Positions 14,067 to 59,809 are shown, numbered from the stretch's first letter. The stretch: DNA of 64,000 nucleotides from an uncultured bacterium (GCA_964515295.1 CAZETW010000004.1:4994-68993), one strand, 5' to 3'. Program-made: numbers and translations. Notes: generated by a model from the sequence alone, not told the origin.

Positions 14067-14073
14067 TGAAACA

Positions 14074-14476: not shown

Positions 14477-14501
14477 CAGTAATTTTGAGGTCTTTAATAA
14501 A

Positions 14502-43725: not shown

Positions 43726-46700
43726 CTATAGAACCTGTTTACGCAGAGTCTGCTGCATTCTTTTAATTCTTTCAAACAGGTCTCTTCTTTCCGGTGTTCG
43801 TTTTAATACTTCATTCCATTGAAAAACAGCCTTTTTATATTCCCCCCTGTTTGCATAAATTACTCCCAGATTTTCAGCAACTGTAAGATTATCAGGCTGT
43901 ACACGACGGACTTTATCATAGTAATATTCTGATTTATCTAAATTACCGATCTTGAAATAAGCATCTCCAAGATAATGCAGGGCATTTAAATTTGTGGGAT
44001 CTTCATTCAGAACTTTTTTAATCGCAATGATAGCTTTTTCATATGATCCCTGTTTATAAAACCATTTTCCGGATTTTAAAAAGCGCTGAATCCTTTTTTC
44101 TCTGATCCTTTTTTCTTCTTCCGGGTTTGGTTTTTTTTCTTCAGGTACTCTTTTTCTTTTTTGGACATCCAGGCCTTCTGACATCTTAAGAAAACTGGTT
44201 TCTTCCTCCTCTTGTTTATCTTTACCATATTCAATGTCTTCATGTTGTTCTTCATCCAGCAATTCATCTGCTGTAAAAGAAGCTATCTCTTCTTCTACAT
44301 CCTGTTCGTCAAAGACATCAGAGTAATATATATCTTTATGATCAAGTGTTTCTTCAATTTCCTCAAGTTCATCAATTTCTTCTTCACTTTCTTGCGGAAT
44401 TTCTTTTACAATATCCTGTTTTTGTTCTTCTTTTTCTTCAAGAGATTCAGCCGGCGCTTCCTCTTCTGATTCAGGAGTGATAATGTCTTCATCTTCAGAA
44501 CTGCCTATAAAATCATTTAAAATATGATCGGTTTTTTCGTGTATTTCACTTTCATGTTCAGAAATAACTTCTTCAGGTTCTTCAGAGATAACCTCTTCGA
44601 AATCTTTTTCTTCTTCTTTGATTACTTTTCTGTCTTCATCCTCAACGTCAACAGACTGCTCAACGATTGTAGGTTTATTAACAATTTTTCCGTCCAAGGT
44701 AACAAAAGGAGTACCTGGTTTCTTTAGAGCTTTGCGTCCGCCTTTTTCAATAAAAGCCAAACGTAATTCTTTGGTATTTAATTTGCTTTTTACTAATTCA
44801 TCGTAAATTCTTTTTTCATCAATTTCTACATTATCATATTTATCACTCTTTAATTCCTCACTAATTCTTTTTGCTCCATAATCAGGATTATTTTTAATAA
44901 TGTCGATAATTTTGGCTCTGTCTTCAATGCTTATATGTTTATCTTCAATTTTTGTAATTTTCCTTCCGTCATATAATCCTTCTTTTCCCTTTTTATTGTA
45001 TTTCTTTCTGTATTTATAATATGTTGAGGTAGAAACATTTTCCCTTTTACATGCTTCTTTAACACTTAATCCTTTTTTATCAACTAATTTCATCAACCGT
45101 AATCTGTGATTAAATAATACATCCTCAGCTTTCAATTTTTCTCTTATAGCCACCAGGGTAATATCATCAGTTTGCGCAAAACCTTCGGAAAAGATGATTA
45201 TTTCATCTCTGATCTTATTTACAAATGGTTCTACATTTAAGTCTCCATATTCTCTTATGACCGAAAGAAACCGTTCATCACCAAAGCGTTCTCTGTTGTG
45301 ATTCATGGCTTCGGTAATACCATCAGTATAGACGATCAGCGAATCTTCGGGTCTTAAATGCAGAGTGTCAGATTCAATTGTTTTATTAAACAGAGAATCA
45401 TCGGGCAGTTTAATTCCTATGGGAAATCCTTTCGGATTCAGGTAGTAACTTTTTTTGGTAGATCCTCTATAGAGAATCATGGGATTATGTCCGGCACTGG
45501 CGTAATTTATAGATCTTTTCTTGGAATCAAGAATTACATAAAATATAGTAACAAACATTCCGCGTTTCATATCTTTCATGACAAAACTGTTTACTTTAGC
45601 CAGTACATCAGCAGCATTTTTATTGCCGCGCGCTTCAGTACGAAGTGCTGTTCGGATCATGGTCATTACCAGGGAACCAGGAACTCCTTTACCTGAAACG
45701 TCTGCAACCACAATACCCAGAGTATCATTATCTACCTCCACAAAATCAAAGTAATCTCCGCCCACTTCTTTTGCTGCTTCATAGTATGTAGATATCTCAT
45801 ATCCTTCAATATCCGGAAAAGAAGCCGGGAGCAGTGTTTGCTGTATATCCTGGGCAACCTGTACTTCTTTTTGCAGTCTTTCCTGTTCTGCTAAATGTTC
45901 CTGAGTTTCACGAAATTTTTCTGTAATATCATTAAAAGCTTGAGCTATTTCGCCCACTTCATCTGAATTATCGAATTCCATCACATCTTCTGCTTCTCCC
46001 CGTCCCAAAGCTTTAACCCAGTGAGATAATTTTTTAAAAGGACTCATAGTAGTATATACAAGTACAAAAACTCCTATGCAGCCGCTTACTAATATAACCA
46101 AAGATCTCCAGAAAATACTTTTTCTCTTTTGTGCAACGTTACCGTCAACAAAGCTTTTATTCAACATGATATGGACTGAGCCTAAAATATACCTGTTATC
46201 ATCAATTTCAAATTCAGCGGGTTTATTTATGTCATATACACTGCCCACACCAGCATAGTCATATACATATAAACTATCAGATTTTTTTCTGTATTTTCGT
46301 GGGAGTGAAAATGGTTTTAACAGGTTCTCCATATTCACTGCACCCTGAATACTGCCAGTGCTGTCTACAATAATTATTTCTGAAACCAGTGGAGTATGAT
46401 TATGCTGTAATTCAGCTGAAATTCTTGCTAATTCCCAGGTTTCTTCATTAGCAAGAAATTCGGCGGAATTCTGCACTACAGTTGAAGCCAGTTTTTGTCC
46501 TTCTTCAAGATAGGTGTTAAATACTTTTTTCCCTTGATAAATATAATTCCAGATCGAGAATATTAGTATTAAAAAGGTTAATATACCAGAGGCAATCAAC
46601 GAATATCGGGTTTTCATGGAAAAGCTCAACTCTGGTATGGAAAATTTTTTGGAAACATCTAATTCACGAATTTTTGTCAGACGTAATTCATTTCCCTCTA

Positions 46701-47082
46701 CTGTTTTTCTATAGTCGATCTCATCAATGACCTTGCGCATTATAAATATTCCCAAACCGCCTTTTTTTCCGATATTCACATATCTGTCAAGGTCAGGATT
46801 TTTTACTTTTCTGGGATCAAAAGTTTTCCCCTGATCAATGAGAGAAACAGTAACATTCTGTTCTCTTATTATCATCCTGACTGTTATAAAACCTTCCCAG
46901 TCACGATAAGCATGACGGATTATATTTGTACCTGCTTCATCTATGGCCATTTTAAAGGCATTGATGATGTTTTCACTGACACCATATTTTCTGCCTACTT
47001 TGGTGATAAAATCACGCATTTCGCCCAGATTTCCAATATCAGCGGGTACTTTTAATTCTTTTTTCTTTACTTTTTTAAACAT
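43726..47082 (-). CDS. Multidomain signalling protein: RsbW-like GHKL serine kinase + 2 TM with extracytoplasmic sensor + HAMP + PP2C (RsbU/SpoIIE) phosphatase + transposase-type HTH + acidic tract + C-terminal TPRs
   Basis: 1118 aa; DEAGTNIIRHAY and GGLGIFIMRKVIDEI (HATPase_c_2); two TM helices; GDYFDF...TDGITEA...DDITLVAIR (PP2C-SIG); LSVKEACKRENVSTSTYYKYRKKY and PDYGAKRISEEL (IS481/IS3 OrfA-like HTH); E/D-rich region; 3 TPRs. Confidence 0.8.
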   Translation of the reverse strand: MFKKVKKKELKVPADIGNLGEMRDFITKVGRKYGVSENIINAFKMAIDEAGTNIIRHAYRDWEGFITVRMIIREQNVTVSLIDQGKTFDPRKVKNPDLDRYVNIGKKGGLGIFIMRKVIDEIDYRKTVEGNELRLTKIRELDVSKKFSIPELSFSMKTRYSLIASGILTFLILIFSIWNYIYQGKKVFNTYLEEGQKLASTVVQNSAEFLANEETWELARISAELQHNHTPLVSEIIIVDSTGSIQGAVNMENLLKPFSLPRKYRKKSDSLYVYDYAGVGSVYDINKPAEFEIDDNRYILGSVHIMLNKSFVDGNVAQKRKSIFWRSLVILVSGCIGVFVLVYTTMSPFKKLSHWVKALGRGEAEDVMEFDNSDEVGEIAQAFNDITEKFRETQEHLAEQERLQKEVQVAQDIQQTLLPASFPDIEGYEISTYYEAAKEVGGDYFDFVEVDNDTLGIVVADVSGKGVPGSLVMTMIRTALRTEARGNKNAADVLAKVNSFVMKDMKRGMFVTIFYVILDSKKRSINYASAGHNPMILYRGSTKKSYYLNPKGFPIGIKLPDDSLFNKTIESDTLHLRPEDSLIVYTDGITEAMNHNRERFGDERFLSVIREYGDLNVEPFVNKIRDEIIIFSEGFAQTDDITLVAIREKLKAEDVLFNHRLRLMKLVDKKGLSVKEACKRENVSTSTYYKYRKKYNKKGKEGLYDGRKITKIEDKHISIEDRAKIIDIIKNNPDYGAKRISEELKSDKYDNVEIDEKRIYDELVKSKLNTKELRLAFIEKGGRKALKKPGTPFVTLDGKIVNKPTIVEQSVDVEDEDRKVIKEEEKDFEEVISEEPEEVISEHESEIHEKTDHILNDFIGSSEDEDIITPESEEEAPAESLEEKEEQKQDIVKEIPQESEEEIDELEEIEETLDHKDIYYSDVFDEQDVEEEIASFTADELLDEEQHEDIEYGKDKQEEEETSFLKMSEGLDVQKRKRVPEEKKPNPEEEKRIREKRIQRFLKSGKWFYKQGSYEKAIIAIKKVLNEDPTNLNALHYLGDAYFKIGNLDKSEYYYDKVRRVQPDNLTVAENLGVIYANRGEYKKAVFQWNEVLKRTPERRDLFERIKRMQQTLRKQVL

Positions 47083-47097
47083 AAAATTTATTTATAA

Positions 47098-49008
47098 TTA
47101 TTTATTTTTACGGAATGATTTAATTTTGTTTTTCGCTCCTTCAATTGCCTTTAATAATTTAATATTATATGGATCCAATTGCAAGGCTTCTTCCCATCGC
47201 TCTAAAGCTTTTTTATAATGACCCTGTCTGTAAAGAATAATACCCTGATTAAACATTGTTCGTACTTCTTCTGTCATTTCCTGAGTTGCACCTTTAGCAT
47301 GGGCAAGAGCAGTTCTGTAGTAATTTTTTGCCTCACCGTGATCGGGCTGAATGTCCAGGGCTTTCCTGAAATATTGTACAGCAGAAGTGTAATTTTCTTC
47401 ATCAAAATATTCTTTACCTTTCTGGAAATTAGTGGCGAAATCTATACTCTTATTAAGACTATTAATCTGGTTTACGACTCTTCTATAAATTCTTTCATTA
47501 TCCCGGGATTGTTGCTTGGCCTGATTCAGTATATCATATGCTCTGGATACTTCTCCCTGGTTTATTAATTTTTGTGCTCTAGTAAGTGATATATTGATCT
47601 GGTTTACTAAATTATCCTCAGCATTTTTTATGTATTTTTTCAGTTTGGTATTCTGGGGATCTCTTTCCAGGCCTTCTTCCCATTTTTCTATTGCTTCACG
47701 ATAATTTCTATTTTCCAGCGCTTCAATACCTTCAGTTAATTTTTTATGAACAAATGTGCTGTCTTTTCTGTTACTTACTTTTACTCTCTCCTTTTCAAGA
47801 AGCTGATTTTGCTCTCTTTCTTCGGCTAAACGCTGTCTTTCTATTGCTTCCTGTAATAATTCTTGTGCTTTTTTGTTGTCTTCATCTATTTTAAGTATTT
47901 TTGAAAATTCAACTCTGGCATTATAGAAATCACCTTTTTCAAGATAAGATCTACCGTTTTGAAGACTTTCATTGATTTCTCTTAATCTTTCAGCCTGTAC
48001 TCTCTCATTAAACCTTCTTTGTATCTCTAAACGTCGTTTTTCTTCTAAAAGTTCCTTTTGTTCCTCAATAGTCTTTCCAAAATATAATTTCAAGGAAAAC
48101 AGATTACTAACAGGGAAATATTTTGCATCTCCTATAGATTTAATACCATAATCAATTTGCAGATTTTTAAAAAGCAGCCCCACACCTGCGGTTAACTGTT
48201 CTTTCTCATATCCTCCTCGTATAAAGACCATGTTGCCTAATCCCACCTCCATTCCGAAATGATATTCATTTTCTTTGAATTCAGAATGATCAATATCAGC
48301 CATTAGTAATAAATAGTATTTATTGCTGAAAGTGAATATTTTTGCCATTCCGGCTTTAATTTTATAGGGAAGTATATCCTGCTCAGTGTCCATTTTTAAA
48401 CTCGGTTGTAAGAGATTATACATAGTACATCCGAAATGAAGATCATTTAATATGTTTCTGCTGGTTATCCCATAGTGAATTCCGGCATCCAGACCAAATC
48501 CGTTAGCAGAATACTCTCCTAACTCATCTCTGTAAGCATTACCGTTTATACCTACTGAAAACCCTTTAAAGAGTGTAAGGGCATATGATAGGGTTAATTT
48601 AGCTTTCCAGAAGTTAAATGTTCCTCTGTCAACGGGAATATTATTTACATCGTCATAAAAATTTATATCATCAACCCCAAATCGTGCTATTCCAAAACCG
48701 AATGTTCCAATATTTAAAGTCGGATGAATATATCCGATTTGATGATACTGTACTCCTTCAAATAAAGTAAAGAGAGAGAACCCAAGCTGTTTTTGCTGTA
48801 CTACATTCATGCCAGCCGGATTCCAGGCAAAGGCATAGGCATCATTTGGATATGCTGCTGCAGCGTTCCCCATACTTAATTGCTTTGCTCCGGAACCAAT
48901 TCGCAAAAACAAAGATTCTGCTCCTGCATTACCTTGTTTCTGTTGAGCAAAACATGTACCGGCTATTATAAAAATTATTAGAAAAAATTTTATAATTTTA
49001 CTGTTCAT
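47098..49008 (-). CDS. Outer-membrane FadL/PorV-like beta-barrel fused to C-terminal TPR/coiled-coil domain
   Basis: 636 aa; signal peptide; N-terminal motif GSGAKQLSMGNAAAAYPNDAYAFAWNPAGM characteristic of FadL/PorV superfamily; alternating-hydrophobic beta strands; C-terminal half helical TPR-like. Confidence 0.6.
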   Translation of the reverse strand: MNSKIIKFFLIIFIIAGTCFAQQKQGNAGAESLFLRIGSGAKQLSMGNAAAAYPNDAYAFAWNPAGMNVVQQKQLGFSLFTLFEGVQYHQIGYIHPTLNIGTFGFGIARFGVDDINFYDDVNNIPVDRGTFNFWKAKLTLSYALTLFKGFSVGINGNAYRDELGEYSANGFGLDAGIHYGITSRNILNDLHFGCTMYNLLQPSLKMDTEQDILPYKIKAGMAKIFTFSNKYYLLLMADIDHSEFKENEYHFGMEVGLGNMVFIRGGYEKEQLTAGVGLLFKNLQIDYGIKSIGDAKYFPVSNLFSLKLYFGKTIEEQKELLEEKRRLEIQRRFNERVQAERLREINESLQNGRSYLEKGDFYNARVEFSKILKIDEDNKKAQELLQEAIERQRLAEEREQNQLLEKERVKVSNRKDSTFVHKKLTEGIEALENRNYREAIEKWEEGLERDPQNTKLKKYIKNAEDNLVNQINISLTRAQKLINQGEVSRAYDILNQAKQQSRDNERIYRRVVNQINSLNKSIDFATNFQKGKEYFDEENYTSAVQYFRKALDIQPDHGEAKNYYRTALAHAKGATQEMTEEVRTMFNQGIILYRQGHYKKALERWEEALQLDPYNIKLLKAIEGAKNKIKSFRKNK

Positions 49009-52000
49009 CTATTTTACCACAGCAATTTTTGTTTTTACTATATTGTCGTCTGTATCCATAACCAATATATATACACCGTTAAGTACTGTGTTTCCATTAT
49101 CATTGGTGCCGTTCCATTCAACCTGATTACTCCCCCTTGAATGAAGTCCTTTTCTTCCTTCCGGATCAGTACTGCTGAAAGATTCTGACCAGACTAATTC
49201 TCCGATTAAATTATAAATGCTGAAATTTACATTTGTATCCTTGTCTAAATAGTAAACAATGGTTGTAGTTTTTTTACCCGGTGAACCGAATGGATTGGGA
49301 AAATTCAGTAGATATGCTTTATCGTCTGTTCCCACATCTTCACTTGATATCACCTGTTTTTGCCAGTTGCTCTTTAACTCAAATCTATCTCCTGAAGGAG
49401 ATAACACCGGCAGTGAAACATAAGGGACATACTCATCAACAGCTGTAATATAGGTGCTGTCAGGCATTTCCAGCATAAAATTCACTGTCTTTTCTGTTGT
49501 ATGCATGTCTGCAAGGAGAGCGATTTTCAGTGTATCCTGAGTCTTAATCGGGTTCATATGATCAATTAAAATGTTAACCGGATTTTCGGCAGGTATTTGT
49601 GATGAAGACAGTGTAGCCAGACAGCTGTCTTTATTATAATAATATCTTCCATTCTTCTTTATTAATTTGCATAGTTTGATTTTCTTATAAATAGAAGAAG
49701 GATTTAATGGCTGGTGAGAAAAGTCTAGAAGATTAAATTTTATTTTTGTCAGTAATACTCCATTCGCACCTGCTTCACCTCTGTTGATCATTTCAAATCC
49801 TGTTAGCCAGACATTATTTTGCCCGCTTATTACTTGACTTGAAATAGAATCCGGCTGGTCTAATTCTGTAACGGAAAGCCAGGTTCCCACTGTTGTTACC
49901 CCGATATCTGCACTTACTTTACTTGCATATGCTTCTTCAGATGTATTCTGATCCCAGGGAATTTTTGAAATATAAGCTGAGATAGTGGCAGTTTCGCCTG
50001 TGGAGTAGGGAGGTGCTTTAATCATCCAGTTTGTTTTTTCCTGTGTCGCATAATGAACCGGAGATTCTTTTGTTGTATATCCTTCAGGTAATTGTTCCAG
50101 AGTAATCATAGCAGTACCAAGAGTATCAGCTTCTCCTTTGTTTTCTATCTCTGCATACAGGATAAATTCCTGAGAGGGAGAAACAGATTTGTCATCAATG
50201 TTAAGGTTCAATGCCAGATCAGCTTTTTTTACAGTTTGTATCTCAATACCTTTCTGTTCTGCAGATATTATTACATCCTCTTGCTGAAGTGCATCGTAGC
50301 CGGATGCATTTACATAAATAGTTCTTTTATCTGTTGCTCCTTTGGGCGCTCTGATTTGCCAGGTTACTTCATTTGATATCACTTTTTTATCCAGGTTATC
50401 CGAGGTGGTATATCCGGTTGGCAATGTTATGGAGGCAGTGATATCCCTTACATAATTCCAGGTCAGACTTGCTCTTACTACAAAATACTGATCGGATGAT
50501 ACTTTTTGATTAACTGCTCCGGGCGGTGAGGCTATACCCAATGAACTGGTAAGAAAACTTTTATGAGTTATTACAGATATTTTTTCTGTCTTTTTTTCAA
50601 TTTTTGCAACTTGTCCGGTGTTTCTGGCTAAAGGAGGTTTATACAGAGTAACATTTATTGTTTGCCAGTCTGTGGCAATATTGGGCGATTTGATTTCCCA
50701 GGTTGCAGGTGAATTAAGAGTAATGGAATTATTAACTGATCCGCTGAGTGTATAGGGAGAAGGAAGAGTTATTCTTATTTTTCCGGTAGTATCAATAGCA
50801 CCAGATCCATGATTTTCCAGATGTGCGGTGAGGATAAAAACCTGGTTGGTTGTAAATTCTCCTATGGGATTGCTTAATTTCAGTTTTATTGAGAGGTCTG
50901 CCGGTTTCTGAATATAAGCAAAAGCTACAGGATCTAAAGCCGGACCAACAGGTACCTCTGAATCATCCTTTTTGGCACTTGTTATAGAAGCAGTAAATTG
51001 TTCTCCGGAAATATTTTCCACTGCTGATGCGGTAAGGTAAAATATTACAGAATCTCTTTGGGATGGTGACAGAGAAAGTATGGTTAAATCTGAATTTTCT
51101 ATATTTGATATTTCGCTTTCCAAATGAACATTAATATTCTTGACTGCATGACCTAATCCGTTTTCTACTGATACAATAACTTTAAATTCCTGGTTTGTAT
51201 CCAAATACGCATTGCCTCCCTCGGTTGTATTATAAGCATCGATCACAGTTGATACAATTCTAAAGGCCGGATTGGACTGCACTGATATTAAGGCTGATGC
51301 ATTATTCTGTTTTATGTTTCCGGTGTTTTTTTCAACTCCCTGGATATTGGTTTTAACTTCTACCTCTCCGCCGTATAGTCCGGTTAGTTTAACTTTGTAT
51401 ACTAATGTATCCCTTGTTCCGCTTTTCAGGCTGATATTTTTGGTGGTACATTCTGTAATATAATCTGTGAGTTTTAGATCTTCATGCCAGAAACTGATAT
51501 TTGATTTCAGGGTATCTATCTGAATTTCTGCATAATAATCTATAGGGGCCTGACTTTGCCCGTTAGCAAGTACAACTTTAACAAACCAGGGTTCAGTCTG
51601 ACCTCCCATTACTTTATTTGTGGAAGTGATAATTTTTTCAATGGACAGAGTTCCTGGCTGTTGTACATGTACTTTGGTTGTGTCATCAACAGGATTTTTA
51701 CTTGTCAGAGAATCATTCTTATTATCAGTCCATCCGCCGCCGCTTACTGTAAAGATTTCATTGTACAGATAGGTTTGAAAGGCATTACCTGTTACTGTGA
51801 TAACAGAAGTTTCACCGCCCTCAAGAGGATCAACAGGGATACGGGTAGGGAAATTAAACCAGGGATGTTCTGAAGTTAAATGTAATCCGATGTCATGTAA
51901 TCCATCTCCGCCTGTATTGGCTATTTTAATGTTCATGTCAAATTCCTGATTGATATTAACATAGGGTGCATTGGGAGCCATATTTGTAAGTTCGAGAATT

Positions 52001-55000
52001 TTTAATTCCGCTTCTTCTTCAATAATTACTGTTCCCCATCCTGCATTATCAGTGTTGTCAGAAACCTGTAATTCTGTATTTATTTCAGTACCTGAAACAG
52101 AGGCGTTTATTTTACATTCTCCAGTGCTGTTTTCTCCTGTATGAATAACCTGATAGTTCAGACTGTCGATAGTTTCACCTTCAAGAATCCATCCTCCTTT
52201 AGCAAGAGAATCCGGTCGTATTACTGCCCAATTATCTCCAATACTGAAAGAAAGAGAAGTGTTTACAGCAGCCGAAACAGAATCAATCAACACACTGCTT
52301 TCACCCCGGTTACTCAGTACTACTGCTATTGACCAGTTTGTGTCCTGAGCAACTGTTACTTCATTCTGGGAGGTGATGATTTCATTGACAATCAAATCAG
52401 CCGGCGTCTGTACATTAACTGAAGTCCAGGCTTGATCAGTTAATTGTTCACCAGCGATAGTGGAAGTATATAAAAATCCCTGTATGAGTGCTGAGCCTTT
52501 ATCCGCACCGGTACTGTCTATGGTTACAACTAATGTATCTGTAGAATAACCGGATAATATTTTTGTACCACTATTCTTAAATGTATCAGGAATTGATATT
52601 TGATAATCATTTTTCAGTATCCCGTCAGTTTTTATATTTAACCCGATACTGTCAAGAGTAACATTGTTGCTGCTCAGGTTTTCCACAGTCATAATAAGGA
52701 ACCAGTCTTTGTTTTGATTTGCAGTTATATGCTGTACAAGAGTAGAGTAATCATTTTTTACCGGTTTAAAATCCAAAATTCTCAGCCCCGGTGCATTTAT
52801 AACATTAAAACTATTAGAAACTCCACTGGGTGCAGGTTCCTCTGCACCTGTTTCTGTAACTGTAATAACATTACCTGAGTATTGGGTGTTCACTGTAACG
52901 CTTCCATTCCATATACCGTTAACAAAATTCGAACTTTTTTGCGGTTGTATAGTAGCGGAAGAATCAGTGATATCAACAGTACCGGTAAAATTGGATTTGA
53001 CATTATCATTTTCATCATAGGTAGTGATATTTAACGGAAACGGCTGACCTGTTACCTGAGTATTGATCAAGCCTATTTCAAAATAAGACACTTGTCCGGG
53101 AATAACTATAATGGAACCGGTATGAGCTGATATATCAGTTTGTGGTTTATGTGTCTTTATATTGCCGCTTCCCGGTTTACTGGGGATATAGGTGATGTCA
53201 GATTTATTTGAGATGTTAACTGCAGGAGTTAATCCCTGGGAACTCCAATCTACAATTTCAGTTCCTCTGAAGTTTCCATAGCCGTCATATCCTACAGAAT
53301 AAAGATCCAGACTTTCTCCTACACTTAAGGTGTCGTTAATTATTTCTTCTCCTTCATGAATAGGAACATTTTTTATCTTAAGCTGAGACAGAGTTCCTGG
53401 ATTTACTAAAATATCACTCACAACAGAAGAAATATCGTTTACCTGGCCTTTCAGCGCAACTCCGCTTTCTGCTTTTACTAATATCTGATTAGCCTGCCCT
53501 GAACCGTTTATCACCTGAATATCATTGAAAATCGGAGACGACCCATTGGGAGAATTCCCTCCCAGATTATTACAGGTTACAGTAACCATACCTGACCAAT
53601 TATTCTGATATTTATCCTGTGCATCAGTTAGTGTTAAGGGAAATGGTATTCCTGCCGTTTGAATTGAGCCGCAATTCAAGGCAAATGTGTCTATGGAAGC
53701 ATACGTGACCGTAATACTGCTGCTGGTCTTACTTATTTCTCCATCAGTAACAGTTACGGTTTGTTGGGGGGAATTATATAAAATAAAAGATGAACCGAAG
53801 AATACTTTTTGTCCGTTATTCCATCCGGTTCCGTTATCAACCGGCAGTGTTGCCGGATATGGTTCTTTATCTGAAGAACTCCAGATAATAATTCCTTCAT
53901 AATCGGTTTTTTTATTTTTATAGCTGTCAAATGCAGTTACCGTAACCCCGTAGGAGAAAGGCTGTCCGGCACGCCTGGTTTCAGGTAATCCTTCTATAGT
54001 AAAATCACCAAGTTCGCCAGGGAGGACCAGGATTGAATGACTGGTTCTGCTTACTGTCCCGTCAATTACTTTGATTGTCTGGGAGGGTGCATTAAATAAA
54101 AGAAAAGAAGAACCACTAAACGTTTTGCTTCCATTTACCCAGCCTGTTCTGTCATCTGTAGGTAATGCTGCAGGGTAAGGAGTGCCGTCAGAAGAATTCC
54201 AGATAACAATTCCGGAATAATTAGTTTTTAAATTATTATATTCATCAAAAGCAGAGACGGTAACATTACTATTGAATTGCTGACCTGCAATAGTACTGGA
54301 TGGAACTCCGCTTAACTCAAATCTGTCAAGATCTGTTGCATATACAGTAATCGGATCTGATGTTTCGATGACGCTCCCGTCCTGAACTGTAACAGTTTGT
54401 TCAGTGGTATTGTAGAGTTTAAATGAAGTTCCCGGAAAAGTCTTTTTTCCCCCACTCCATCCGGTTCCGTCATCTTCCGGAAGATCAGCAGGATATGGAA
54501 TACCGTCACTGGATACCCAGTCCACTGTACCCTGGTAGTCATTTTTGACATTTCCATAAAAATCATAAGCAGTAATTTCAATATCATTGTTAAAAACAGA
54601 ACCTGCTTCAACGCTGCCGGGGATTCCGCTTATCTTAAAACTATCAAGCGCTGCCGGTTCAACTGTTACATTATATGTAGTACTGGTTATAGAGCCATCT
54701 GATACAGAAAGCCATTGAGTACCTGCTGTACATAATTTGAATAGGGCACCACTGAATTTTTTTGATCCGTTATTCCATTCACTGCCGTCATCAGTGGGAA
54801 GTAAGACTTTTTCGTTAGTATCAGATGTATGCCAGGTGACAGTACCGTTATATGTATCTTCAATTTGCCCGTATTGATTATAGGCAGTCACTTCAATACT
54901 GTCAGGGAACTGCTGGCCTGCTTGAACAGTAGCTGGTACATTTGTTAGCTCCAATCTGGCTAAAGTCCCGGCATTTGTTTCAGGTGCTTTTAAAGGGTGA

Positions 55001-55098
55001 TTAACTTGTGCCCCCAACGTTTTATTGACATAAAAATTAAGTGTCACCCCCGAAAGGAATACTGCGGTCAAAAAGATTTTTTTCAAGGATATATTCAT
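49009..55098 (-). CDS. Giant secreted repeat protein with T9SS (Por) C-terminal sorting domain
   Basis: 2029 aa; signal peptide; at least 4.5 tandem ~105-aa repeats near N-terminus; C-terminal ~90 aa NFPNPFGSPG...IYNLIGELV...GVYILVM...KIAVVK matches T9SS CTD. Confidence 0.85.
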   Translation of the reverse strand: MNISLKKIFLTAVFLSGVTLNFYVNKTLGAQVNHPLKAPETNAGTLARLELTNVPATVQAGQQFPDSIEVTAYNQYGQIEDTYNGTVTWHTSDTNEKVLLPTDDGSEWNNGSKKFSGALFKLCTAGTQWLSVSDGSITSTTYNVTVEPAALDSFKISGIPGSVEAGSVFNNDIEITAYDFYGNVKNDYQGTVDWVSSDGIPYPADLPEDDGTGWSGGKKTFPGTSFKLYNTTEQTVTVQDGSVIETSDPITVYATDLDRFELSGVPSSTIAGQQFNSNVTVSAFDEYNNLKTNYSGIVIWNSSDGTPYPAALPTDDRTGWVNGSKTFSGSSFLLFNAPSQTIKVIDGTVSRTSHSILVLPGELGDFTIEGLPETRRAGQPFSYGVTVTAFDSYKNKKTDYEGIIIWSSSDKEPYPATLPVDNGTGWNNGQKVFFGSSFILYNSPQQTVTVTDGEISKTSSSITVTYASIDTFALNCGSIQTAGIPFPLTLTDAQDKYQNNWSGMVTVTCNNLGGNSPNGSSPIFNDIQVINGSGQANQILVKAESGVALKGQVNDISSVVSDILVNPGTLSQLKIKNVPIHEGEEIINDTLSVGESLDLYSVGYDGYGNFRGTEIVDWSSQGLTPAVNISNKSDITYIPSKPGSGNIKTHKPQTDISAHTGSIIVIPGQVSYFEIGLINTQVTGQPFPLNITTYDENDNVKSNFTGTVDITDSSATIQPQKSSNFVNGIWNGSVTVNTQYSGNVITVTETGAEEPAPSGVSNSFNVINAPGLRILDFKPVKNDYSTLVQHITANQNKDWFLIMTVENLSSNNVTLDSIGLNIKTDGILKNDYQISIPDTFKNSGTKILSGYSTDTLVVTIDSTGADKGSALIQGFLYTSTIAGEQLTDQAWTSVNVQTPADLIVNEIITSQNEVTVAQDTNWSIAVVLSNRGESSVLIDSVSAAVNTSLSFSIGDNWAVIRPDSLAKGGWILEGETIDSLNYQVIHTGENSTGECKINASVSGTEINTELQVSDNTDNAGWGTVIIEEEAELKILELTNMAPNAPYVNINQEFDMNIKIANTGGDGLHDIGLHLTSEHPWFNFPTRIPVDPLEGGETSVITVTGNAFQTYLYNEIFTVSGGGWTDNKNDSLTSKNPVDDTTKVHVQQPGTLSIEKIITSTNKVMGGQTEPWFVKVVLANGQSQAPIDYYAEIQIDTLKSNISFWHEDLKLTDYITECTTKNISLKSGTRDTLVYKVKLTGLYGGEVEVKTNIQGVEKNTGNIKQNNASALISVQSNPAFRIVSTVIDAYNTTEGGNAYLDTNQEFKVIVSVENGLGHAVKNINVHLESEISNIENSDLTILSLSPSQRDSVIFYLTASAVENISGEQFTASITSAKKDDSEVPVGPALDPVAFAYIQKPADLSIKLKLSNPIGEFTTNQVFILTAHLENHGSGAIDTTGKIRITLPSPYTLSGSVNNSITLNSPATWEIKSPNIATDWQTINVTLYKPPLARNTGQVAKIEKKTEKISVITHKSFLTSSLGIASPPGAVNQKVSSDQYFVVRASLTWNYVRDITASITLPTGYTTSDNLDKKVISNEVTWQIRAPKGATDKRTIYVNASGYDALQQEDVIISAEQKGIEIQTVKKADLALNLNIDDKSVSPSQEFILYAEIENKGEADTLGTAMITLEQLPEGYTTKESPVHYATQEKTNWMIKAPPYSTGETATISAYISKIPWDQNTSEEAYASKVSADIGVTTVGTWLSVTELDQPDSISSQVISGQNNVWLTGFEMINRGEAGANGVLLTKIKFNLLDFSHQPLNPSSIYKKIKLCKLIKKNGRYYYNKDSCLATLSSSQIPAENPVNILIDHMNPIKTQDTLKIALLADMHTTEKTVNFMLEMPDSTYITAVDEYVPYVSLPVLSPSGDRFELKSNWQKQVISSEDVGTDDKAYLLNFPNPFGSPGKKTTTIVYYLDKDTNVNFSIYNLIGELVWSESFSSTDPEGRKGLHSRGSNQVEWNGTNDNGNTVLNGVYILVMDTDDNIVKTKIAVVK
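53570..54966 (-). repeat. Tandem ~310-bp coding repeats (~105-aa units) inside the giant T9SS cargo gene
   Basis: Protein-level repeats LxxFxIxGxPxxxxAGQxF...VTAxDxYGNxKxxYxGxVxWxSSD...LPxDxGTGWxxGxKxFxGxSFxLxNxxxQTVTVxDG...TSxxITV observed four to five times. Confidence 0.7.
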
Positions 55099-55414
55099 AA
55101 ACTATTTTTTTTCATAGACCTATACTTTACATATTACTCCGTATTATATTTGGCTTTTTTAATACGGGCAAATAATATACCATAATTACAAAATTAATTT
55201 ATAATCTTATAATTCCATAAAAAACAAAAGTTTGTAAAAATGGTGATTTTTAAGTTAATAAAAATATTATTTAAATGGTATTATACTGGATGATTTTCAA
55301 CCACTTACTGAAAAAGGGGAATAGTTAATTTGTTCAGTGAAGTCAGACTTTATTTATATACTATATAAAGAGGGGGATTTTATATAGTGTATTGTTTAAA
55401 AAAATTTATTTTTA

Positions 55415-56401
55415 TTACTTCTCATCAGCAAGTAATGATGTAATAGCTGCAGTGTGTACAATATCGTCTGTACTGCACCCCCGGGATAAATCATTAATCG
55501 GTTTTCTTAATCCCTGAACAACAGGTCCGACAGCCTCGGCTTTTGCAAATCGTTGAACAAGTTTGTATCCGATATTTCCTGCATTCAGGTCAGGGAAAAT
55601 GAGAACATTTGCATTTCCTGCAACCACACTCCCGGGTGCCTTCTTTTTAGCAATCTCAGGTATAACAGCTGTATCAACCTGCAGTTCTCCATCAATTTTT
55701 AATATAGGATTTCGTGATTTTGCAATCTTGGTTGCCTCAACAACTTTATCTGTCAGTTCATGTTTTGAACTTCCATAGGTAGAAAATGACAGCATTGCTA
55801 TAATAGGTTCTGTATCAGTGAGTTTTTCATAGGTTTTCGCGGAAGAAATTGCTATACTTGCCAGTCCTTCAGCATCAGGATCAGGAACTACTGCACTGTC
55901 AGCAAAAATTATCATTCTATTCCATCCGGGAATGATCATAAGAAATGCCCCTGAAACTATAGATACCCCTTCGGCAATACCAACACAATGAAGTGCAGAA
56001 CGTATGACATCCCCGGTAGTATTATTTGATCCGGCAACGCTTCCATGGACCTCATCATTCCGGACCATCATTGCTCCGAAAAAAAGAGGATTGGAAACAA
56101 TATTCTCAGCTTCTTTTTCTGATATTCCTTTATGTTTTCTTAATTCATAATATTCTGAAATATATTTATCCAGATGCGGGGAATTTTGGGGATTTATTAT
56201 TTTTATATCATCAAGATCAATGTTTTCTTTTGATATTTTTTTCGAAATATCATCTTCATTACCGAGAATAGTTACTCTGCAGACTTCTTTTTTCCTGAGT
56301 AGTGCAGCTGCTTTTATAATCCGCTCGTCAAATCCTTCAGGTAACACTATATGATTATTTTTTTGGGAAGCTTTATAAAGAATATCCCTTAAGAATTCCA
56401 T
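55415..56401 (-). CDS. pta: Phosphate acetyltransferase / phosphate butyryltransferase (short Pta/Ptb type)
   Basis: Start at MEFLRD with AAGGAG SD 8 nt upstream (the ORF track's earlier ATG would overlap coaD); 328 aa phosphotransacylase fold. Confidence 0.8.
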   Translation of the reverse strand: MEFLRDILYKASQKNNHIVLPEGFDERIIKAAALLRKKEVCRVTILGNEDDISKKISKENIDLDDIKIINPQNSPHLDKYISEYYELRKHKGISEKEAENIVSNPLFFGAMMVRNDEVHGSVAGSNNTTGDVIRSALHCVGIAEGVSIVSGAFLMIIPGWNRMIIFADSAVVPDPDAEGLASIAISSAKTYEKLTDTEPIIAMLSFSTYGSSKHELTDKVVEATKIAKSRNPILKIDGELQVDTAVIPEIAKKKAPGSVVAGNANVLIFPDLNAGNIGYKLVQRFAKAEAVGPVVQGLRKPINDLSRGCSTDDIVHTAAITSLLADEK

Positions 56402-56420
56402 GAATATCGTCTCCTTTCGG

Positions 56421-56900
56421 TTAATAATCAAATTTATTTTTTATAGCCTCAGTAACATTTGGTGGTAAAAAAAGATGTACATCCCCTTTCATTGCCGCTA
56501 CTTCTTTGGCAATAGAGGAATTTATATAAATATATTCTTCATTTGGCATTAAATATACGGTTTCAAGTGAAGGTTTAAGTTTTCTGTTCATTAAAGCCAT
56601 TTGAAATTCATATTCAAAATCCGATACTGCTCTTAATCCTCTGATAATTGCATGTGCACCTTTGTCTTCAGCATATTCCACTAATAGGCCACTGAATGAT
56701 TCAACAGTTACGTTATCAATATTCTTGATTGCTCCGGTAATTAAATCCTTACGTTCTTGCAGGGAAAAGAGGGGTGTTTTCTTTATATTAGTGGAAACAG
56801 CAATAATAACATGATCAAAAAGTTGACCGGCGCGTTTAATAATGTCTAAATGCCCTTTGGTGATAGGATCAAATGTGCCGGGATAAATTGCGGTTTTCAT
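56421..56900 (-). CDS. coaD: Phosphopantetheine adenylyltransferase
   Basis: 159 aa; MKTAIYPGTFDPITKGHLDII (T/HxGH nucleotidyltransferase motif). Confidence 0.92.
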   Translation of the reverse strand: MKTAIYPGTFDPITKGHLDIIKRAGQLFDHVIIAVSTNIKKTPLFSLQERKDLITGAIKNIDNVTVESFSGLLVEYAEDKGAHAIIRGLRAVSDFEYEFQMALMNRKLKPSLETVYLMPNEEYIYINSSIAKEVAAMKGDVHLFLPPNVTEAIKNKFDY

Positions 56901-56902
56901 GG

Positions 56903-57472
56903 TTAAATTCCTTCATTATCTATGATTGGACTGTAAATTGATATGACATTAATTCCAAAAGTTCTTTGCTTAATCATTTTTATTGTATGACTATCTTTAT
57001 CATTATCTTTTTTACCATGTTTTAGTATAAGTAATCCATTATCCTTTAACAGTTTGTATCTATCTATATAATTTACAATTTTTTCTCTTAGATTGTGTTT
57101 AAAAGGAGGATCGGCAAATATTATATCAAAATCATATCTCTTTTCCCCCAGTCTGATTAATTGGGTAAAGACATTTCCCTTTATTATCAATCCCTTACGG
57201 CTAAAATTACATAATTGTATGTTTTTTTTTATTATATTTATACTATATTGTGATCTGTCAATAAAATTTGCTCTAAAAGCACCGCGGCTAAGTGCTTCAA
57301 TACCCAGAGCTCCGCTTCCGGCAAAAAGATCAAGAACAACGGCATTTTCAATTTTATATTGTAGATAAGAGAAGATAAATTCTTTGACTATTCCTGTAGT
57401 AGGTCTGAATTTATGTCCAGAAGGACCATATAATTTTCTTCCCTTAGCTTGACCTCCTATAATTCTAATCAC
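56903..57472 (-). CDS. rsmD: 16S rRNA (guanine966-N2)-methyltransferase RsmD
   Basis: 189 aa; DLFAGSGALGIEALSRGA and FADPPF motifs. Confidence 0.88.
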   Translation of the reverse strand: MIRIIGGQAKGRKLYGPSGHKFRPTTGIVKEFIFSYLQYKIENAVVLDLFAGSGALGIEALSRGAFRANFIDRSQYSINIIKKNIQLCNFSRKGLIIKGNVFTQLIRLGEKRYDFDIIFADPPFKHNLREKIVNYIDRYKLLKDNGLLILKHGKKDNDKDSHTIKMIKQRTFGINVISIYSPIIDNEGI

Positions 57473-57499
57473 TACAATGTACCGTATATAAAATTTATA

Positions 57500-58777: not shown

Positions 58778-58837
58778 GATATAATTCCTCCCTTAAATTC
58801 TCAATAATGTAACCCCTCTTCCTCATTCCTAAAAATT

Positions 58838-59788
58838 TTATTTGAATTGTTTTAATGCTACCCCGATAGATGATGTAAATTTTTCAGGATTTTCTCTGAA
58901 TTTTTCATTATTTGAAATTGATTGTGAAATTGCAATTTTAGAAAATGGATTCAGTATTTCAATGGGCACTTGTATATTTTTAGTCAGTTGATTCTGGAAA
59001 TCATAAATTAAATCACGTCCGGTTAAATAAATTTTTTCAAAATCTTCAATTTTATTGACTATTTTATGACCAAAAATTAATCTTTTTAATTCTTTTAATA
59101 ATAAATCGCTTATTTCTGAAACACTTACTATGGTTGAATTATCTTTATTTTTTAATGAAATATTATATGATAAATAGAATTCTTCATCCTTAATAAAAAT
59201 AATACAAATATATTCTCTTTGTAAATCAATTAAAATATTGATCCCTTCACTTAGTTGGTAATTTTCAACTAATGAGCGGATATTTGAAAAAACATCAACG
59301 TCTATATCCTTTAAAATCATGCCGGTCTTATGTATGAGTTTTCTGATCATAGACAAAAATTTTTTTCTAAGTAAGACAACAACATATAAAGGATTACCAG
59401 AAAATGTCTGGAACGGCAACCGCTGATAATCAACAATATAGTCATCTAAAGAAGAAATAACAAACTGTTGTGATTCCCAATAGAGTTGCTGTTGTATAAA
59501 ATTTTTATCAAGACCAAGGGCAATAGGGATTCGTTTGATCAAAACACAACCGCTATATATTGAAACACCTACTTCTTTACCAGCTCCTAAATCTTTATAC
59601 AGATCTTTTAAAATAACACTCTGCGTGTCCAGAAAATTATTTTGAGACATCATTGTTTCCATATCAAAAGATTGTAATAGATGTTTGGAAACAAGATTCT
59701 GGACACTCTTATTTTTCATCAAAACAAGGCACATTTGATCTGGGTATATAGATAACCCAATATAAGGATTTTCAGAGTGCTTTTTCAC
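58838..59788 (-). CDS. PilM-like actin-fold protein (type IV pilus/competence assembly)
   Basis: 316 aa; N-terminal IGLSIYPDQMCLVLM and C-terminal NPF...SSIGVALKQF resemble PilM termini. Confidence 0.5.
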   Translation of the reverse strand: MKKHSENPYIGLSIYPDQMCLVLMKNKSVQNLVSKHLLQSFDMETMMSQNNFLDTQSVILKDLYKDLGAGKEVGVSIYSGCVLIKRIPIALGLDKNFIQQQLYWESQQFVISSLDDYIVDYQRLPFQTFSGNPLYVVVLLRKKFLSMIRKLIHKTGMILKDIDVDVFSNIRSLVENYQLSEGINILIDLQREYICIIFIKDEEFYLSYNISLKNKDNSTIVSVSEISDLLLKELKRLIFGHKIVNKIEDFEKIYLTGRDLIYDFQNQLTKNIQVPIEILNPFSKIAISQSISNNEKFRENPEKFTSSIGVALKQFK

Positions 59789-59809
59789 TTAAATATTTTT
59801 TTATGACCT

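What the first reader, a model, noticed from the sequence alone, without database searches (positions are those of the whole stretch)
49009..55098. 2029-aa secreted protein with tandem ~105-aa repeats and a T9SS C-terminal sorting domain
The N-terminal quarter contains at least four and a half tandem copies of a ~105-aa unit, about 35-45% identical to each other, at approximately nt 53570-54966. The unit has a conserved core (AGQxF, VTAxDxYGN, WxSSD, LPxDxGTGW, QTVTVxDG) reminiscent of an Ig-like or lectin-like fold of unknown family. Further divergent copies occur downstream, and the last ~90 residues match the Por-secretion CTD. The product is likely a large adhesin or surface-layer component. 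The repeat unit itself may be an undescribed domain.
Basis: seen in the sequence. Interest (0 to 1): 0.55.

Follow-up and report, generated by a model that had tools for sequence, protein, structure and literature searches.

The report
Giant T9SS-tailed modular surface protein
This gene encodes a 2029-residue, about 217 kDa chain of 16 predicted beta-sandwich-type domains that ends in a type IX secretion tail; that is an ordinary kind of protein for its bacterial superphylum, but in at least six phyla it sits just upstream of its own PorV/PorQ-like outer-membrane barrel and an envelope sensor.

Summary
ORF 49009-55098 (-) encodes a 2029-aa protein with a Sec-type signal peptide. Four tandem ~106-aa repeats are 36-55% identical (BLAST E down to 7e-38), and three diverged copies follow, to aa 769.

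Past aa 770 the domains are not further copies. They form three other repeat families, two of them CARDB/NEW3-like, plus one unique domain.

The last 109 aa score 31 bits on TIGR04183 (cut-off 23) when scanned alone. Their model best matches the PorU and PorZ structures.

The added value is context. The next gene, with no gap, is a PorV/PorQ-family barrel fused to TPRs, followed by an RsbW-HAMP-PP2C sensor. This cargo-barrel-sensor module recurs in KSB1, Calditrichota, Zixibacteria, Latescibacteria, Krumholzibacteriota and Ignavibacteriaceae.

Verdict: a new member of a known kind. The conserved, undescribed gene linkage is of moderate interest.

The parts
49009..55098 (-). Whole ORF, 2029 aa plus stop. 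The mature protein is about 217 kDa, pI 4.6, with 28% Thr+Ser+Asn, 7 Cys and no internal hydrophobic segment.
55012..55098 (-). N-terminal Sec-type signal peptide, aa 1-29 (MNISLKKIFLTAVFLSGVTLNFYVNKTLGA|Q). The cleavage site was assigned by inspection.
   Evidence: sequence read directly; no predictor was run
53695..54963 (-). Ig1-Ig4 (aa 46-468): four close tandem copies of the ~106-aa Ig-like repeat, carrying the long WxSSD...PYPAxLPxDxGTGW loop.
52792..53694 (-). Ig5-Ig7 (aa 469-769): three diverged copies of the same repeat family, lacking the long loop.
   Evidence: hhalign probability 93-97% against Ig1
49888..52791 (-). Eight middle domains, M1-M8 (aa 770-1737), of 110-130 aa each, in three families: M1/M2/M4; M3/M5 (CARDB-like); M6/M7/M8 (NEW3/CARDB-like).
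   Evidence: hhalign matrix; CARDB above the gathering score in orthologues at the M3 position, and NPCBM_assoc below threshold; no PDB sequence relative for M1/M2/M4
49339..49887 (-). M9 (aa 1738-1920): a unique ~180-aa domain just before the CTD. It is the least conserved domain among orthologues (24% identity) but occurs in 2-4 copies in the Latescibacteria, Krumholzibacteriota and unclassified counterparts (L020-L023, L025, L026).
49012..49338 (-). T9SS type A C-terminal sorting domain (aa 1921-2029), a predicted beta-sandwich and the most conserved domain among orthologues (51% identity).
   Evidence: TIGR04183 at 31.0 bits against a 23-bit cut-off on the isolated domain; AF2 pLDDT 89; best Foldseek hits PorU 6za2 and PorZ 5m11; the profile hits the PorU CTD
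47098..49008 (-). Neighbouring gene whose start codon abuts the stop codon of the big ORF. It encodes 636 aa: signal peptide, PorV/PorQ-family outer-membrane barrel (aa ~25-310), coiled coil and TPR repeats (aa ~350-630).
   Evidence: NF033709 PorV_fam at 116 bits against a 90-bit cut-off; Pfam PorV/UPF0164 below threshold plus TPRs; PGAP names orthologues 'PorV/PorQ family protein'
43726..47082 (-). Third gene of the apparent operon, 15 nt downstream. It encodes 1118 aa: RsbW-like kinase (HATPase_c_2), two hydrophobic segments flanking a ~140-aa loop, then HAMP, a PP2C/SpoIIE phosphatase, HTH and TPR.
55099..55414 (-). AT-rich 316-nt intergenic region upstream of the big ORF, with one sigma-70-like match (TTGCCC-17-TATAAT, 55171-55143). 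It is a possible promoter region only.
   Evidence: promoter-like sites in the scanned region are not more frequent than in shuffles

Best explanation
The ORF encodes a giant, non-enzymatic cell-surface protein of a bacterium in the FCB (Fibrobacterota-Chlorobiota-Bacteroidota) superphylum.

Export (inferred). The protein is exported by Sec through an N-terminal signal peptide. It is then carried across the outer membrane by a type IX secretion system that recognises its C-terminal type A sorting domain.

Architecture (shown). The passenger is a string of 16 domains of about 100-180 aa, 15 of them 99-130 aa: seven Big_1/filamin-type Ig domains, eight domains in three further repeat families (two of them CARDB/NEW3-like), and one unique domain. 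There is no catalytic module.

Likely role (inferred). It most likely forms a long fibril or surface-layer element projecting from the outer membrane, with the copy-number-variable Ig1-3 repeats at the far end.

Anchoring (inferred from gene linkage only). A PorV/PorQ-family barrel fused to TPRs is encoded immediately downstream, with no gap. It travels with this particular CTD subtype across at least six phyla. I therefore infer that this barrel is the cognate shuttle or anchor that receives the CTD, much as PorQ holds PorZ and PorP/SprF-like proteins hold type B cargo. I further infer that its TPR domain is periplasmic, and that the adjacent membrane-bound RsbW-HAMP-PP2C sensor (with a STAS partner in most lineages) couples envelope status to expression of the module.
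For: Architecture:
- Signal peptide and domain chain.
- The repeat profile coincides with Pfam Big_1 and Filamin hits in other giant proteins.
- CARDB scores above the gathering threshold in orthologues.

CTD:
- TIGR04183 scores 31 bits against a 23-bit cut-off on the isolated tail, and 8 of 10 related tails pass.
- 14 of 17 orthologues hit TIGR04183 at E<=0.1.
- The best PDB sequence hit is the CTD of PorU.
- The best structural hits are PorU (E 6e-5) and PorZ (E 4e-4).
- The CTD always lies at the extreme C-terminus, in 40 of 40 homologues.

Neighbour:
- PorV_fam scores 116 bits against a 90-bit cut-off.
- Its start codon abuts the stop codon of the big ORF, and no terminator-like site lies in either intergenic gap between the three genes (two lie inside coding sequence on this strand).

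Linkage:
- All 12 distant loci recovered through the CTD pattern carry PorV-TPR followed by the SpoIIE sensor directly downstream.
- All 3 loci sampled from the PorV-TPR side, and 2 of 2 loci sampled through distant homologues of the big protein (one KSB1, one unclassified), have a giant CTD protein directly upstream.
- The CTD is the most conserved domain among orthologues.

Background:
- TIGR04183 is a signature of the FCB superphylum (PMC5317091, PMC4737851).
- Cognate cargo-shuttle gene pairs are established for type B CTDs (PMC12618676), and there is a PorQ-PorZ complex (PMC10947112).
- LptF/LptG genes in the window indicate a diderm envelope with LPS.
Against: - No T9SS translocon or motor gene (SprA/Sov, PorK/L/M/N, PorU) lies in the 64-kb window, and the rest of the genome could not be examined.
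- On the whole protein the CTD score is below the curated cut-off (18.9 against 23), and Pfam Por_Secre_tail does not hit the query.
- In Bacteroidota all type A CTDs are reported to use the general PorV (PMC12618676). A dedicated PorV/Q-like partner for a type A-like tail would therefore be a departure, and here it rests on adjacency alone.
- The PorV-TPR protein could simply be the organism's general PorV.
- PorU and PorZ are among the few CTD-bearing chains in the PDB, so their ranking first says 'T9SS CTD', not 'retained CTD'.
- Nothing measures abundance, localisation or binding, so fibril, S-layer and adhesin roles cannot be separated.
Confidence: 0.6

Rival explanations
1. It is a generic T9SS cargo. 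The CTD is only a cleavable export signal, removed by a PorU-type sortase, and the protein is then linked to LPS or released. On this reading the downstream PorV/PorQ-TPR protein is the organism's general T9SS shuttle, and the two genes are merely co-located.
For: The type A CTD match. In Flavobacterium all type A CTDs use the one PorV (PMC12618676). The PorV-family match is only at family level: PorV_fam passes, but the PorV, PorQ and PorV2 equivalog models all fall far below their cut-offs.
Against: The linkage between this CTD subtype and the barrel-TPR gene holds in every locus examined across at least six phyla. The CTD is more conserved than the passenger domains. The two genes abut with no gap. 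A general shuttle would not be expected to stay glued to one cargo gene over such evolutionary distances.
Confidence: 0.25
2. It is specifically the S-layer or sheath protomer of these bacteria: an abundant, self-assembling lattice protein, analogous to the T9SS-secreted S-layer proteins of Tannerella (recalled from my own knowledge).
Against: There are no expression or abundance data. The copy number of the N-terminal Ig domains varies from 3 to 9 between orthologues, which suits a stalk or adhesin at least as well. The structural hits are generic for Ig-like sandwiches.
Confidence: 0.3
3. It is not a T9SS substrate. On this reading the C-terminal FlgD-Ig-like sandwich is just another structural domain, and the protein reaches or stays in the envelope by another route.
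For: Pfam FlgD_ig (20.6 bits) and FlgD models score about as well as the T9SS models on the whole protein, and all are below their cut-offs. ScpA and complement Ig domains also rank high in the structure search. No T9SS core gene lies in the window.
Against: The isolated tail passes TIGR04183. The N-x-P-N-P-F motif and the strict C-terminal position hold in 40 of 40 homologues. PorU and PorZ give the best sequence and structure hits. A PorV/PorQ-family gene lies next door.
Confidence: 0.08

Closest known systems
T9SS type A CTD cargo proteins of the FCB superphylum (TIGR04183 / Por_Secre_tail), for example large multi-Ig surface proteins of Bacteroidota
   Same: Sec signal peptide, modular beta-sandwich passenger, and a ~100-aa beta-sandwich CTD at the extreme C-terminus with the N-x-PNPF start.
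   Different: The tail is a distinct, tightly conserved subtype (E about 1e-20 between phyla with its own profile, against about 1e-7 to TIGR04183). It is always followed by a PorV/PorQ-family-TPR gene. The host is not a Bacteroidota member.
SprB-SprF and other type B CTD cargo / PorP-SprF shuttle gene pairs of Flavobacterium johnsoniae (PMC12618676, PMC9143113)
   Same: A giant repetitive surface protein is encoded next to a dedicated outer-membrane beta-barrel that would receive its CTD.
   Different: Here the CTD is type A-like rather than type B. The barrel belongs to the PorV/PorQ family rather than PorP/SprF, and it carries a ~300-aa TPR extension. A partner-switching sensor is part of the module. 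No experiment exists.
PorZ-PorQ and PorU-PorV subcomplexes of the Porphyromonas gingivalis attachment complex (PMC10947112, PMC8545088)
   Same: CTD-bearing proteins sit in complex with a PorV/PorQ-family barrel. PorU and PorZ are the best sequence and structure matches of this CTD.
   Different: The passenger has no sortase or PorZ-like beta-propeller domains. Whether its CTD is retained is unknown.
Inverse-autotransporter adhesins (invasin, intimin, FdeC) built of Big_1 domains
   Different: There is no N-terminal beta-barrel or LysM, and no C-type lectin tip. The export route differs. The repeat does not reach the Pfam Big_1 threshold and carries a ~20-residue conserved loop (SSD..PYPA.LP.D.GTGW) between strands.
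CARDB / NEW3 (PF07705, PF10633) multi-domain envelope proteins
   Same: Domains M3/M5 and M6-M8 show the x-N-x-G-x-x-x-A strand pattern. Orthologues pass the CARDB gathering score.
   Different: The query's own domains are below threshold. The M1/M2/M4 and M9 families have no Pfam or PDB sequence match at all.

Membership tests
T9SS type A CTD cargo | N-terminal Sec signal peptide | tested here: met
   Read directly from the translation: a Lys-containing n-region, the hydrophobic core IFLTAVFLSGVTL, and LGA|Q. No signal-peptide predictor was available.
T9SS type A CTD cargo | Extreme C-terminal domain reaching the TIGR04183 cut-off (23 bits) | tested here: met
   The isolated 109-aa tail scores 31.0 bits, E 1.9e-7, over model positions 2-71 of 72. 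The whole-protein score is only 18.9 bits, so automatic annotation would miss it. 8 of 10 related tails pass.
T9SS type A CTD cargo | CTD folds as the beta-sandwich seen in solved T9SS CTDs | tested here: met
   AF2 pLDDT 89 with 8 strands. Best Foldseek hits are PorU 6za2 (E 6e-5, 23% identity) and PorZ 5m11 (E 4e-4). The profile hits the PorU CTD at residues 1060-1142.
T9SS type A CTD cargo | Genome encodes the T9SS core (SprA/Sov, PorK, PorL, PorM, PorN, PorU) | not testable with these tools
   None is among the ORFs of at least 150 aa in the window that were scanned. The literature places TIGR04183 and T9SS in the FCB superphylum (PMC5317091, PMC4737851, PMC11205867).
T9SS type A CTD cargo | A PorV-family shuttle is present | tested here: met
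   The adjacent gene 47098-49008 scores 116 bits on NF033709 PorV_fam against a 90-bit cut-off.
T9SS type A CTD cargo | Secretion depends on T9SS; CTD is cleaved or retained | not testable with these tools
   This needs genetics and proteomics.
Pfam Big_1 (PF02369), for the ~106-aa repeat | Score at or above the gathering threshold (34.9 bits) | tested here: not met
   There is no Big_1 hit on the whole protein at E<=1. Only 2 of 46 repeat units give a faint hit (best E 0.058).
Pfam Big_1 (PF02369), for the ~106-aa repeat | Ig-like fold of the invasin/intimin type | tested here: met
Pfam Big_1 (PF02369), for the ~106-aa repeat | Transitive sequence link to accepted members | tested here: met
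   The repeat profile matches, end to end (iE 1e-15 to 1e-17), the same stretches that give Big_1 scores of 62-135 bits in P0061, P0064 and P0117. In P0060 the matched stretch is a Filamin hit.
Pfam CARDB (PF07705), for middle domains M3/M5 | Score at or above the gathering threshold (22.7 bits) | tested here: inconclusive
   The query itself gives no hit. Orthologues P0004, P0010 and P0015 score 27.5-31.9 bits; the P0004 stretch (aa 1049-1108) corresponds to M3. 9 of 17 orthologues hit at E<=0.1.
PorV/PorQ family (NF033709), for the neighbouring gene | Score at or above the curated cut-off (90 bits) | tested here: met
   116 bits over aa 34-291. The specific PorV, PorQ and PorV2 equivalog models are far below their cut-offs, so membership holds at family level only.
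S-layer protein | High abundance and self-assembly into a lattice | not testable with these tools
   There are only indirect hints from composition and generic structural hits.

The most novel reading that the evidence does not exclude
The giant protein is the cargo of a previously undescribed four-gene module that is ancient and widely conserved in non-Bacteroidota FCB phyla. The module consists of:
1. a giant cargo with a dedicated type A-like CTD subtype;
2. a PorV/PorQ-family barrel fused to a TPR domain that would face the periplasm;
3. a membrane-bound RsbW-HAMP-PP2C sensor;
4. a STAS(-HTH) partner protein.

On this reading the barrel-TPR protein is a cognate anchor or shuttle for this one cargo, and the partner-switching sensor reports assembly of the surface structure back to transcription. 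That would extend the 'cognate shuttle' principle, so far shown only for type B CTDs with PorP/SprF, to type A-like CTDs with PorV/PorQ. It would also link T9SS cargo display to partner-switching signalling.
Probability: 0.3. Interest if true: 0.6.

Novelty: new member of a known kind. Interest (0 to 1): 0.38.

Why it matters
On its own the protein is one more large T9SS-tailed, Ig-rich surface protein of an uncultured FCB bacterium, which is useful for annotation but not surprising. Three points give it some value.

1. The ~106-aa repeat and two of the middle domain types (M1/M2/M4 and M9) escape every curated model. The repeat alone occurs in about 13,800 protein clusters, some with more than 30 copies. 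A new Pfam-style model would annotate a great deal of metagenomic dark matter.

2. The whole-protein TIGR04183 score falls below the cut-off although the isolated tail passes clearly. This shows how giant cargo proteins are missed by routine annotation.

3. The strictly conserved cargo / PorV-PorQ-TPR / partner-switching module is found across KSB1, Calditrichota, Zixibacteria, Latescibacteria, Krumholzibacteriota and Ignavibacteriaceae. It offers a testable handle on how T9SS cargo is sorted and anchored outside Bacteroidota. One host, Caldithrix abyssi, is cultured and carries it.

Tried and rejected
- DNA-level tandem repeats: none found, so the repeats are old protein-level duplications.
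- Pfam and NCBIfam on the whole protein, and Pfam on 46 isolated repeat units: nothing at threshold. There are only faint hits to He_PIG, GldM_2nd, Big_1 and Invasin_D3.
- Repeat profile against PDB sequences: only a chance Fab hit.
- Lectin reading: no lectin appears among the structural neighbours, so it was rejected.
- Profiles of M9 and of M1/M2/M4 against PDB sequences: nothing found.
- T9SS core genes in the window: none found. The rest of the window is housekeeping: MnmE, YidC, LptF/G, MutS2, DnaG, RecJ, SecA, TopA, XerC, HprK, FtsE/X, RNase R, DnaJ, GrpE.
- A second CTD protein in the window: none.
- Promoter and terminator scan: promoter-like sites are not above the shuffle expectation, so it was used only to note that no terminator-like site lies in the intergenic gaps between the three genes.
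- Taxonomic placement: all orthologous MAGs are labelled only 'bacterium' or 'uncultured bacterium', and no cluster member carries a name. The neighbouring genes are most similar to those of Calditrichota (47% against about 30% for other phyla), so the lineage was left as unclassified FCB.
- Literature: five searches found no description of a PorV/PorQ-TPR fusion or of this module.
- Mobile-element or phage origin: not considered further, because the locus is syntenic core chromosome in 15 MAGs.


Full report
**1. Observation**

The minus-strand ORF 49009-55098 exists as described, with 2029 codons and an ATG start.

Cutting the protein into 110-aa windows and comparing them with the whole protein gives a ladder of matches offset by about 106 residues between aa 46 and 505. 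These matches are 36-55% identical, with E-values from 1e-11 to 7e-38.

An HMM built from the four best copies scores each of them at 162-173 bits. After iteration over 17 orthologues, the model recovers copies at aa 46-148, 151-253, 257-360, 363-465, 469-567 and 670-768, plus a weak one at 585-671. Profile-profile comparison ties all seven together.

Tandem Repeats Finder sees nothing at the DNA level. The duplications are therefore old.

**2. Full domain map**

After a Sec-type signal peptide (aa 1-29, ending LGA|Q; read) come seven Ig-type repeats, Ig1-7 (aa 46-769). The rest is not 'further divergent copies'.

An all-against-all hhalign of domain slices taken from the 17-sequence orthologue alignment gives these groups:
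- M1/M2/M4 form one family of about 125 aa (probabilities 99%).
- M3/M5 form a second family (98%).
- M6/M7/M8 form a third (98-100%), weakly related to the second (45-74%).
- M9 (aa 1738-1920) stands alone.
- The last 109 aa form the C-terminal domain (CTD).

None of the middle families relates to the Ig repeat (probability 12% or less).

The query itself hits no Pfam model in this region. Orthologues, however, pass the CARDB gathering score: 27.5-31.9 bits against 22.7, with the P0004 stretch at the position corresponding to M3. They also give sub-threshold NEW3 and Transglut_C hits. Profiles of M1/M2/M4 and of M9 find nothing among PDB sequences.

The mature protein is about 217 kDa and acidic (pI 4.6). 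It contains 28% Thr+Ser+Asn and only 7 Cys, and has no internal hydrophobic segment. No catalytic domain was detected.

**3. What the repeat is**

A 46-sequence alignment of repeat units (A3) gave a very confident AlphaFold model: pLDDT 96.8, with eight strands. A roughly 20-residue conserved loop (SSD..PYPA.LP.D.GTGW) lies between strands and is typical of Ig1-4.

- the Ig domains of GH2 enzymes (about 9)
- filamin repeats (about 9)

No curated sequence model reaches threshold on any of the 46 units, and the profile has no PDB sequence relative.

The same profile nevertheless finds 13,801 cluster representatives at E<=1e-3 in a library of 1.84 billion. Of these, 1,864 are at E<=1e-30. They are mostly giant proteins, with up to 37 matched stretches.

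In three of them (P0061, P0064, P0117) the stretches matched end to end by the profile are exactly the best Pfam Big_1 stretches. Their whole-protein Big_1 scores are 62-135 bits against a cut-off of 34.9. In a fourth (P0060) the matched stretch is a Filamin hit.

The unit is therefore a diverged, currently unmodelled branch of the Big_1/filamin Ig superfamily. It is not a new fold, and nothing points to a lectin.

**4. The C-terminal domain**

Whole-protein scans place TIGR04183 (18.9 bits against 23), FlgD_ig (20.6 against 27) and CHU_C below their cut-offs. Scanned on its own, the 109-aa tail scores 31.0 bits on TIGR04183 (E 1.9e-7, model positions 2-71 of 72). Eight of ten related tails pass as well. 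Of the 17 orthologues, 14 hit the model at E<=0.1.

The tail begins with the invariant N-x-PNPF and ends ...K-I-A-V-V-K. It lies at the extreme C-terminus in all 40 homologues that have it.

A profile of 24 tails has as its best PDB sequence hit the CTD of PorU itself (residues 1060-1142, E 0.005). [quoted passage not shown]

The AlphaFold model of the tail (pLDDT 89) is a beta-sandwich. Its best Foldseek hits are PorU (E 6e-5, 23% identity) and PorZ (E 4e-4).

Published work describes TIGR04183 as a hallmark of the FCB superphylum, including Calditrichota and 'Kryptonia' (PMC5317091, PMC4737851). The T9SS-tail reading is thus supported. The caveat is that the T9SS machinery itself could not be looked for outside the window, and none of it lies within the window.

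**5. Context: the most informative part**

The start codon of the next gene (47098-49008) abuts the stop codon of the big ORF. Its 636-aa product has a signal peptide and an N-terminal half that passes the NCBIfam PorV/PorQ family model (116 bits against 90). It does not pass the specific PorV, PorQ or PorV2 models. Its C-terminal half is coiled coil plus TPR repeats. NCBI's pipeline already names orthologues 'PorV/PorQ family protein'. The TPR-less ~356-aa relatives are from Bacteroidota.

Fifteen nucleotides further on lies an 1118-aa protein. It contains an RsbW-like kinase domain, two hydrophobic segments around a ~140-aa loop, then HAMP, a PP2C (SpoIIE) phosphatase, HTH and TPR. No terminator-like site lies in either intergenic gap between the three genes; the two minus-strand sites fall inside coding sequence.

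**6. Conservation of the module**

Sixteen full-length orthologue clusters (36-90% identity) exist, all metagenomic and unnamed.

In genome contigs the whole neighbourhood is syntenic in about 15 MAGs labelled only 'bacterium'. The order is DnaJ, a 582-aa unknown, PilM, a PilN/O-like gene, RsmD, CoaD, Pta, the big gene, PorV-TPR, then the sensor.

The same search, seeded by a CTD peptide pattern, also pulled in loci from other phyla:
- Zixibacteria (L018, L033)
- Ignavibacteriaceae (L019)
- Latescibacteria (L020)
- Krumholzibacteriota (L021-23)
- two unclassified MAGs (L025, L026)
- Calditrichota, including Caldithrix abyssi (L024, L028, L029)

In all 12 of these loci a large protein ends in this tail subtype and is followed directly by PorV-TPR and the sensor. 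The large protein is 1100-4000 aa where its ORF is complete; it is cut by the contig end in L019 and interrupted in L028. With a profile of this tail, E is about 1e-20.

These large proteins are built from the same parts in different numbers: the Ig repeat, M2-, M3- and M6-type domains, and M9 in up to four copies.

Sampling from other starting points gave the same picture. Two distant homologues of the big protein, one from KSB1 and one unclassified, and three PorV-TPR homologues, all showed the same order. A STAS-domain gene follows the sensor in all five.

That STAS gene is present in most loci but absent next to the sensor in the window and its closest relatives.

Within the orthologue set the CTD is the most conserved domain (51% identity) and M9 the least (24%). 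Ig1-3 come and go, and the total number of Ig copies ranges from 3 to 9.

**7. Mechanism**

Shown:
- the architecture of the protein
- the type of its C-terminal tail
- the family of the neighbouring barrel
- the conserved gene linkage

Inferred:
- The protein is exported by Sec and then carried across the outer membrane by T9SS.
- It forms a long, non-enzymatic beta-sandwich chain on the cell surface.
- Its tail docks on the co-encoded PorV/PorQ-type barrel, by analogy with three known cases: PorZ-PorQ (PMC10947112), PorU-PorV, and the type B cargo-PorP/SprF pairs that are genetically linked in Flavobacterium (PMC12618676).
- The barrel's TPR domain would face the periplasm.
- The partner-switching sensor may couple envelope state to transcription.

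Whether the structure is an S-layer-like coat, a fibril or an adhesin cannot be decided from sequence. The composition and the constant core-genome location lean towards a structural coat. The variable N-terminal copy number fits a stalk or an adhesin.

The main rival is that the barrel-TPR protein is simply the general PorV of these organisms, and that the tail is a cleaved signal.

**8. Comparison and novelty**

As a protein this is a new member of a known kind: a T9SS type A cargo built from Ig and CARDB-type domains. Its repeat is not a member of Pfam Big_1 by score, but it belongs to that superfamily by fold and by transitive sequence links.

The cargo / PorV-PorQ-TPR / partner-switching module was not found in five literature searches. 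If the barrel is a cognate partner, this would be a new variant of T9SS cargo handling outside Bacteroidota.

I rate overall interest at about 0.38. A specialist would find the protein itself ordinary. The conserved linkage is a moderately interesting and testable lead, with the cultured Caldithrix abyssi as a possible model organism.

Noticed in passing
window 47098-49008 (-): A 636-aa PorV/PorQ-family outer-membrane barrel fused to about 300 aa of coiled coil plus TPR repeats. Its start codon abuts the stop codon of the giant ORF. The fusion is conserved (23-81% identity) across KSB1, Calditrichota, Zixibacteria, Latescibacteria, Krumholzibacteriota and Ignavibacteriaceae. The TPR-less relatives are from Bacteroidota.
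   Followed up: yes
window 43726-47082 (-): An 1118-aa fusion of an RsbW-like kinase (HATPase_c_2), two hydrophobic segments with a ~140-aa loop between them, HAMP, a PP2C/SpoIIE phosphatase, HTH, an acidic low-complexity stretch and TPR. It always lies downstream of the PorV-TPR gene. In most other lineages a STAS(-HTH) gene follows it, but that gene is missing here and in the closest relatives (L001, L002).
   Followed up: partly
window 55415-63068 (-) and loci L001-L013, L036, L037: The run DnaJ, a 582-aa unknown, PilM-like, a PilN/O-like gene (weak T2SSM_b hit), RsmD, CoaD and Pta upstream of the giant gene is syntenic. It is fully conserved in the orthologous MAGs. In the two distant loci L036 (KSB1) and L037 (unclassified) the PilM-RsmD-CoaD-Pta part is kept. 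This is unusually deep conservation of gene order.
   Followed up: partly
window 59810-61558 (-): A 582-aa ORF with no Pfam or NCBIfam match, conserved (34-65% identity) next to the PilM-like gene in all syntenic loci.
   Followed up: no
window 55012-55014 and 48940-48942 (codon after the predicted signal-peptidase sites): Both the giant protein (LGA|QVNH) and the PorV-TPR protein (CFA|QQKQ) would expose an N-terminal Gln after cleavage. This is the 'Q-rule' described for Bacteroidetes and seen variably elsewhere in the FCB group (PMC5837995). The cleavage sites were assigned by eye.
   Followed up: no
window 49009-55098 (-), protein level: The Bacteroidota O-glycosylation-type motif D-(S/T)-(A/I/L/V/M/T) occurs 18 times, against 9.3 +/- 2.8 in composition-preserving shuffles. 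Its relevance outside Bacteroidota is unknown.
   Followed up: no
window 49339-49887 and 51280-52791 (-): The M9 domain and the M1/M2/M4 domain family have no Pfam, NCBIfam or PDB sequence match. M9-type domains are themselves repeated two to four times in the Latescibacteria, Krumholzibacteriota and unclassified counterparts (L020-L023, L025, L026). These are candidates for new domain models.
   Followed up: partly
window 14073-14481 (+) and 14424-16193 (+): The bacterial RNase P RNA (259 bits) overlaps the first ~58 nt of the mechanically listed RecJ ORF. The RecJ model only matches from residue 50, so the true RecJ start is probably further downstream.
   Followed up: no
window 36791-38611 (+): A 606-aa TPR protein with weak similarity to PorW/SprE (43.7 bits against a 250-bit cut-off) and to YbgF. 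This is not evidence for a T9SS component.
   Followed up: no
window 4493-6942 (-): LptG and LptF homologues (below the equivalog cut-offs but clearly matched). They indicate an LPS-containing outer membrane in the source organism.
   Followed up: no
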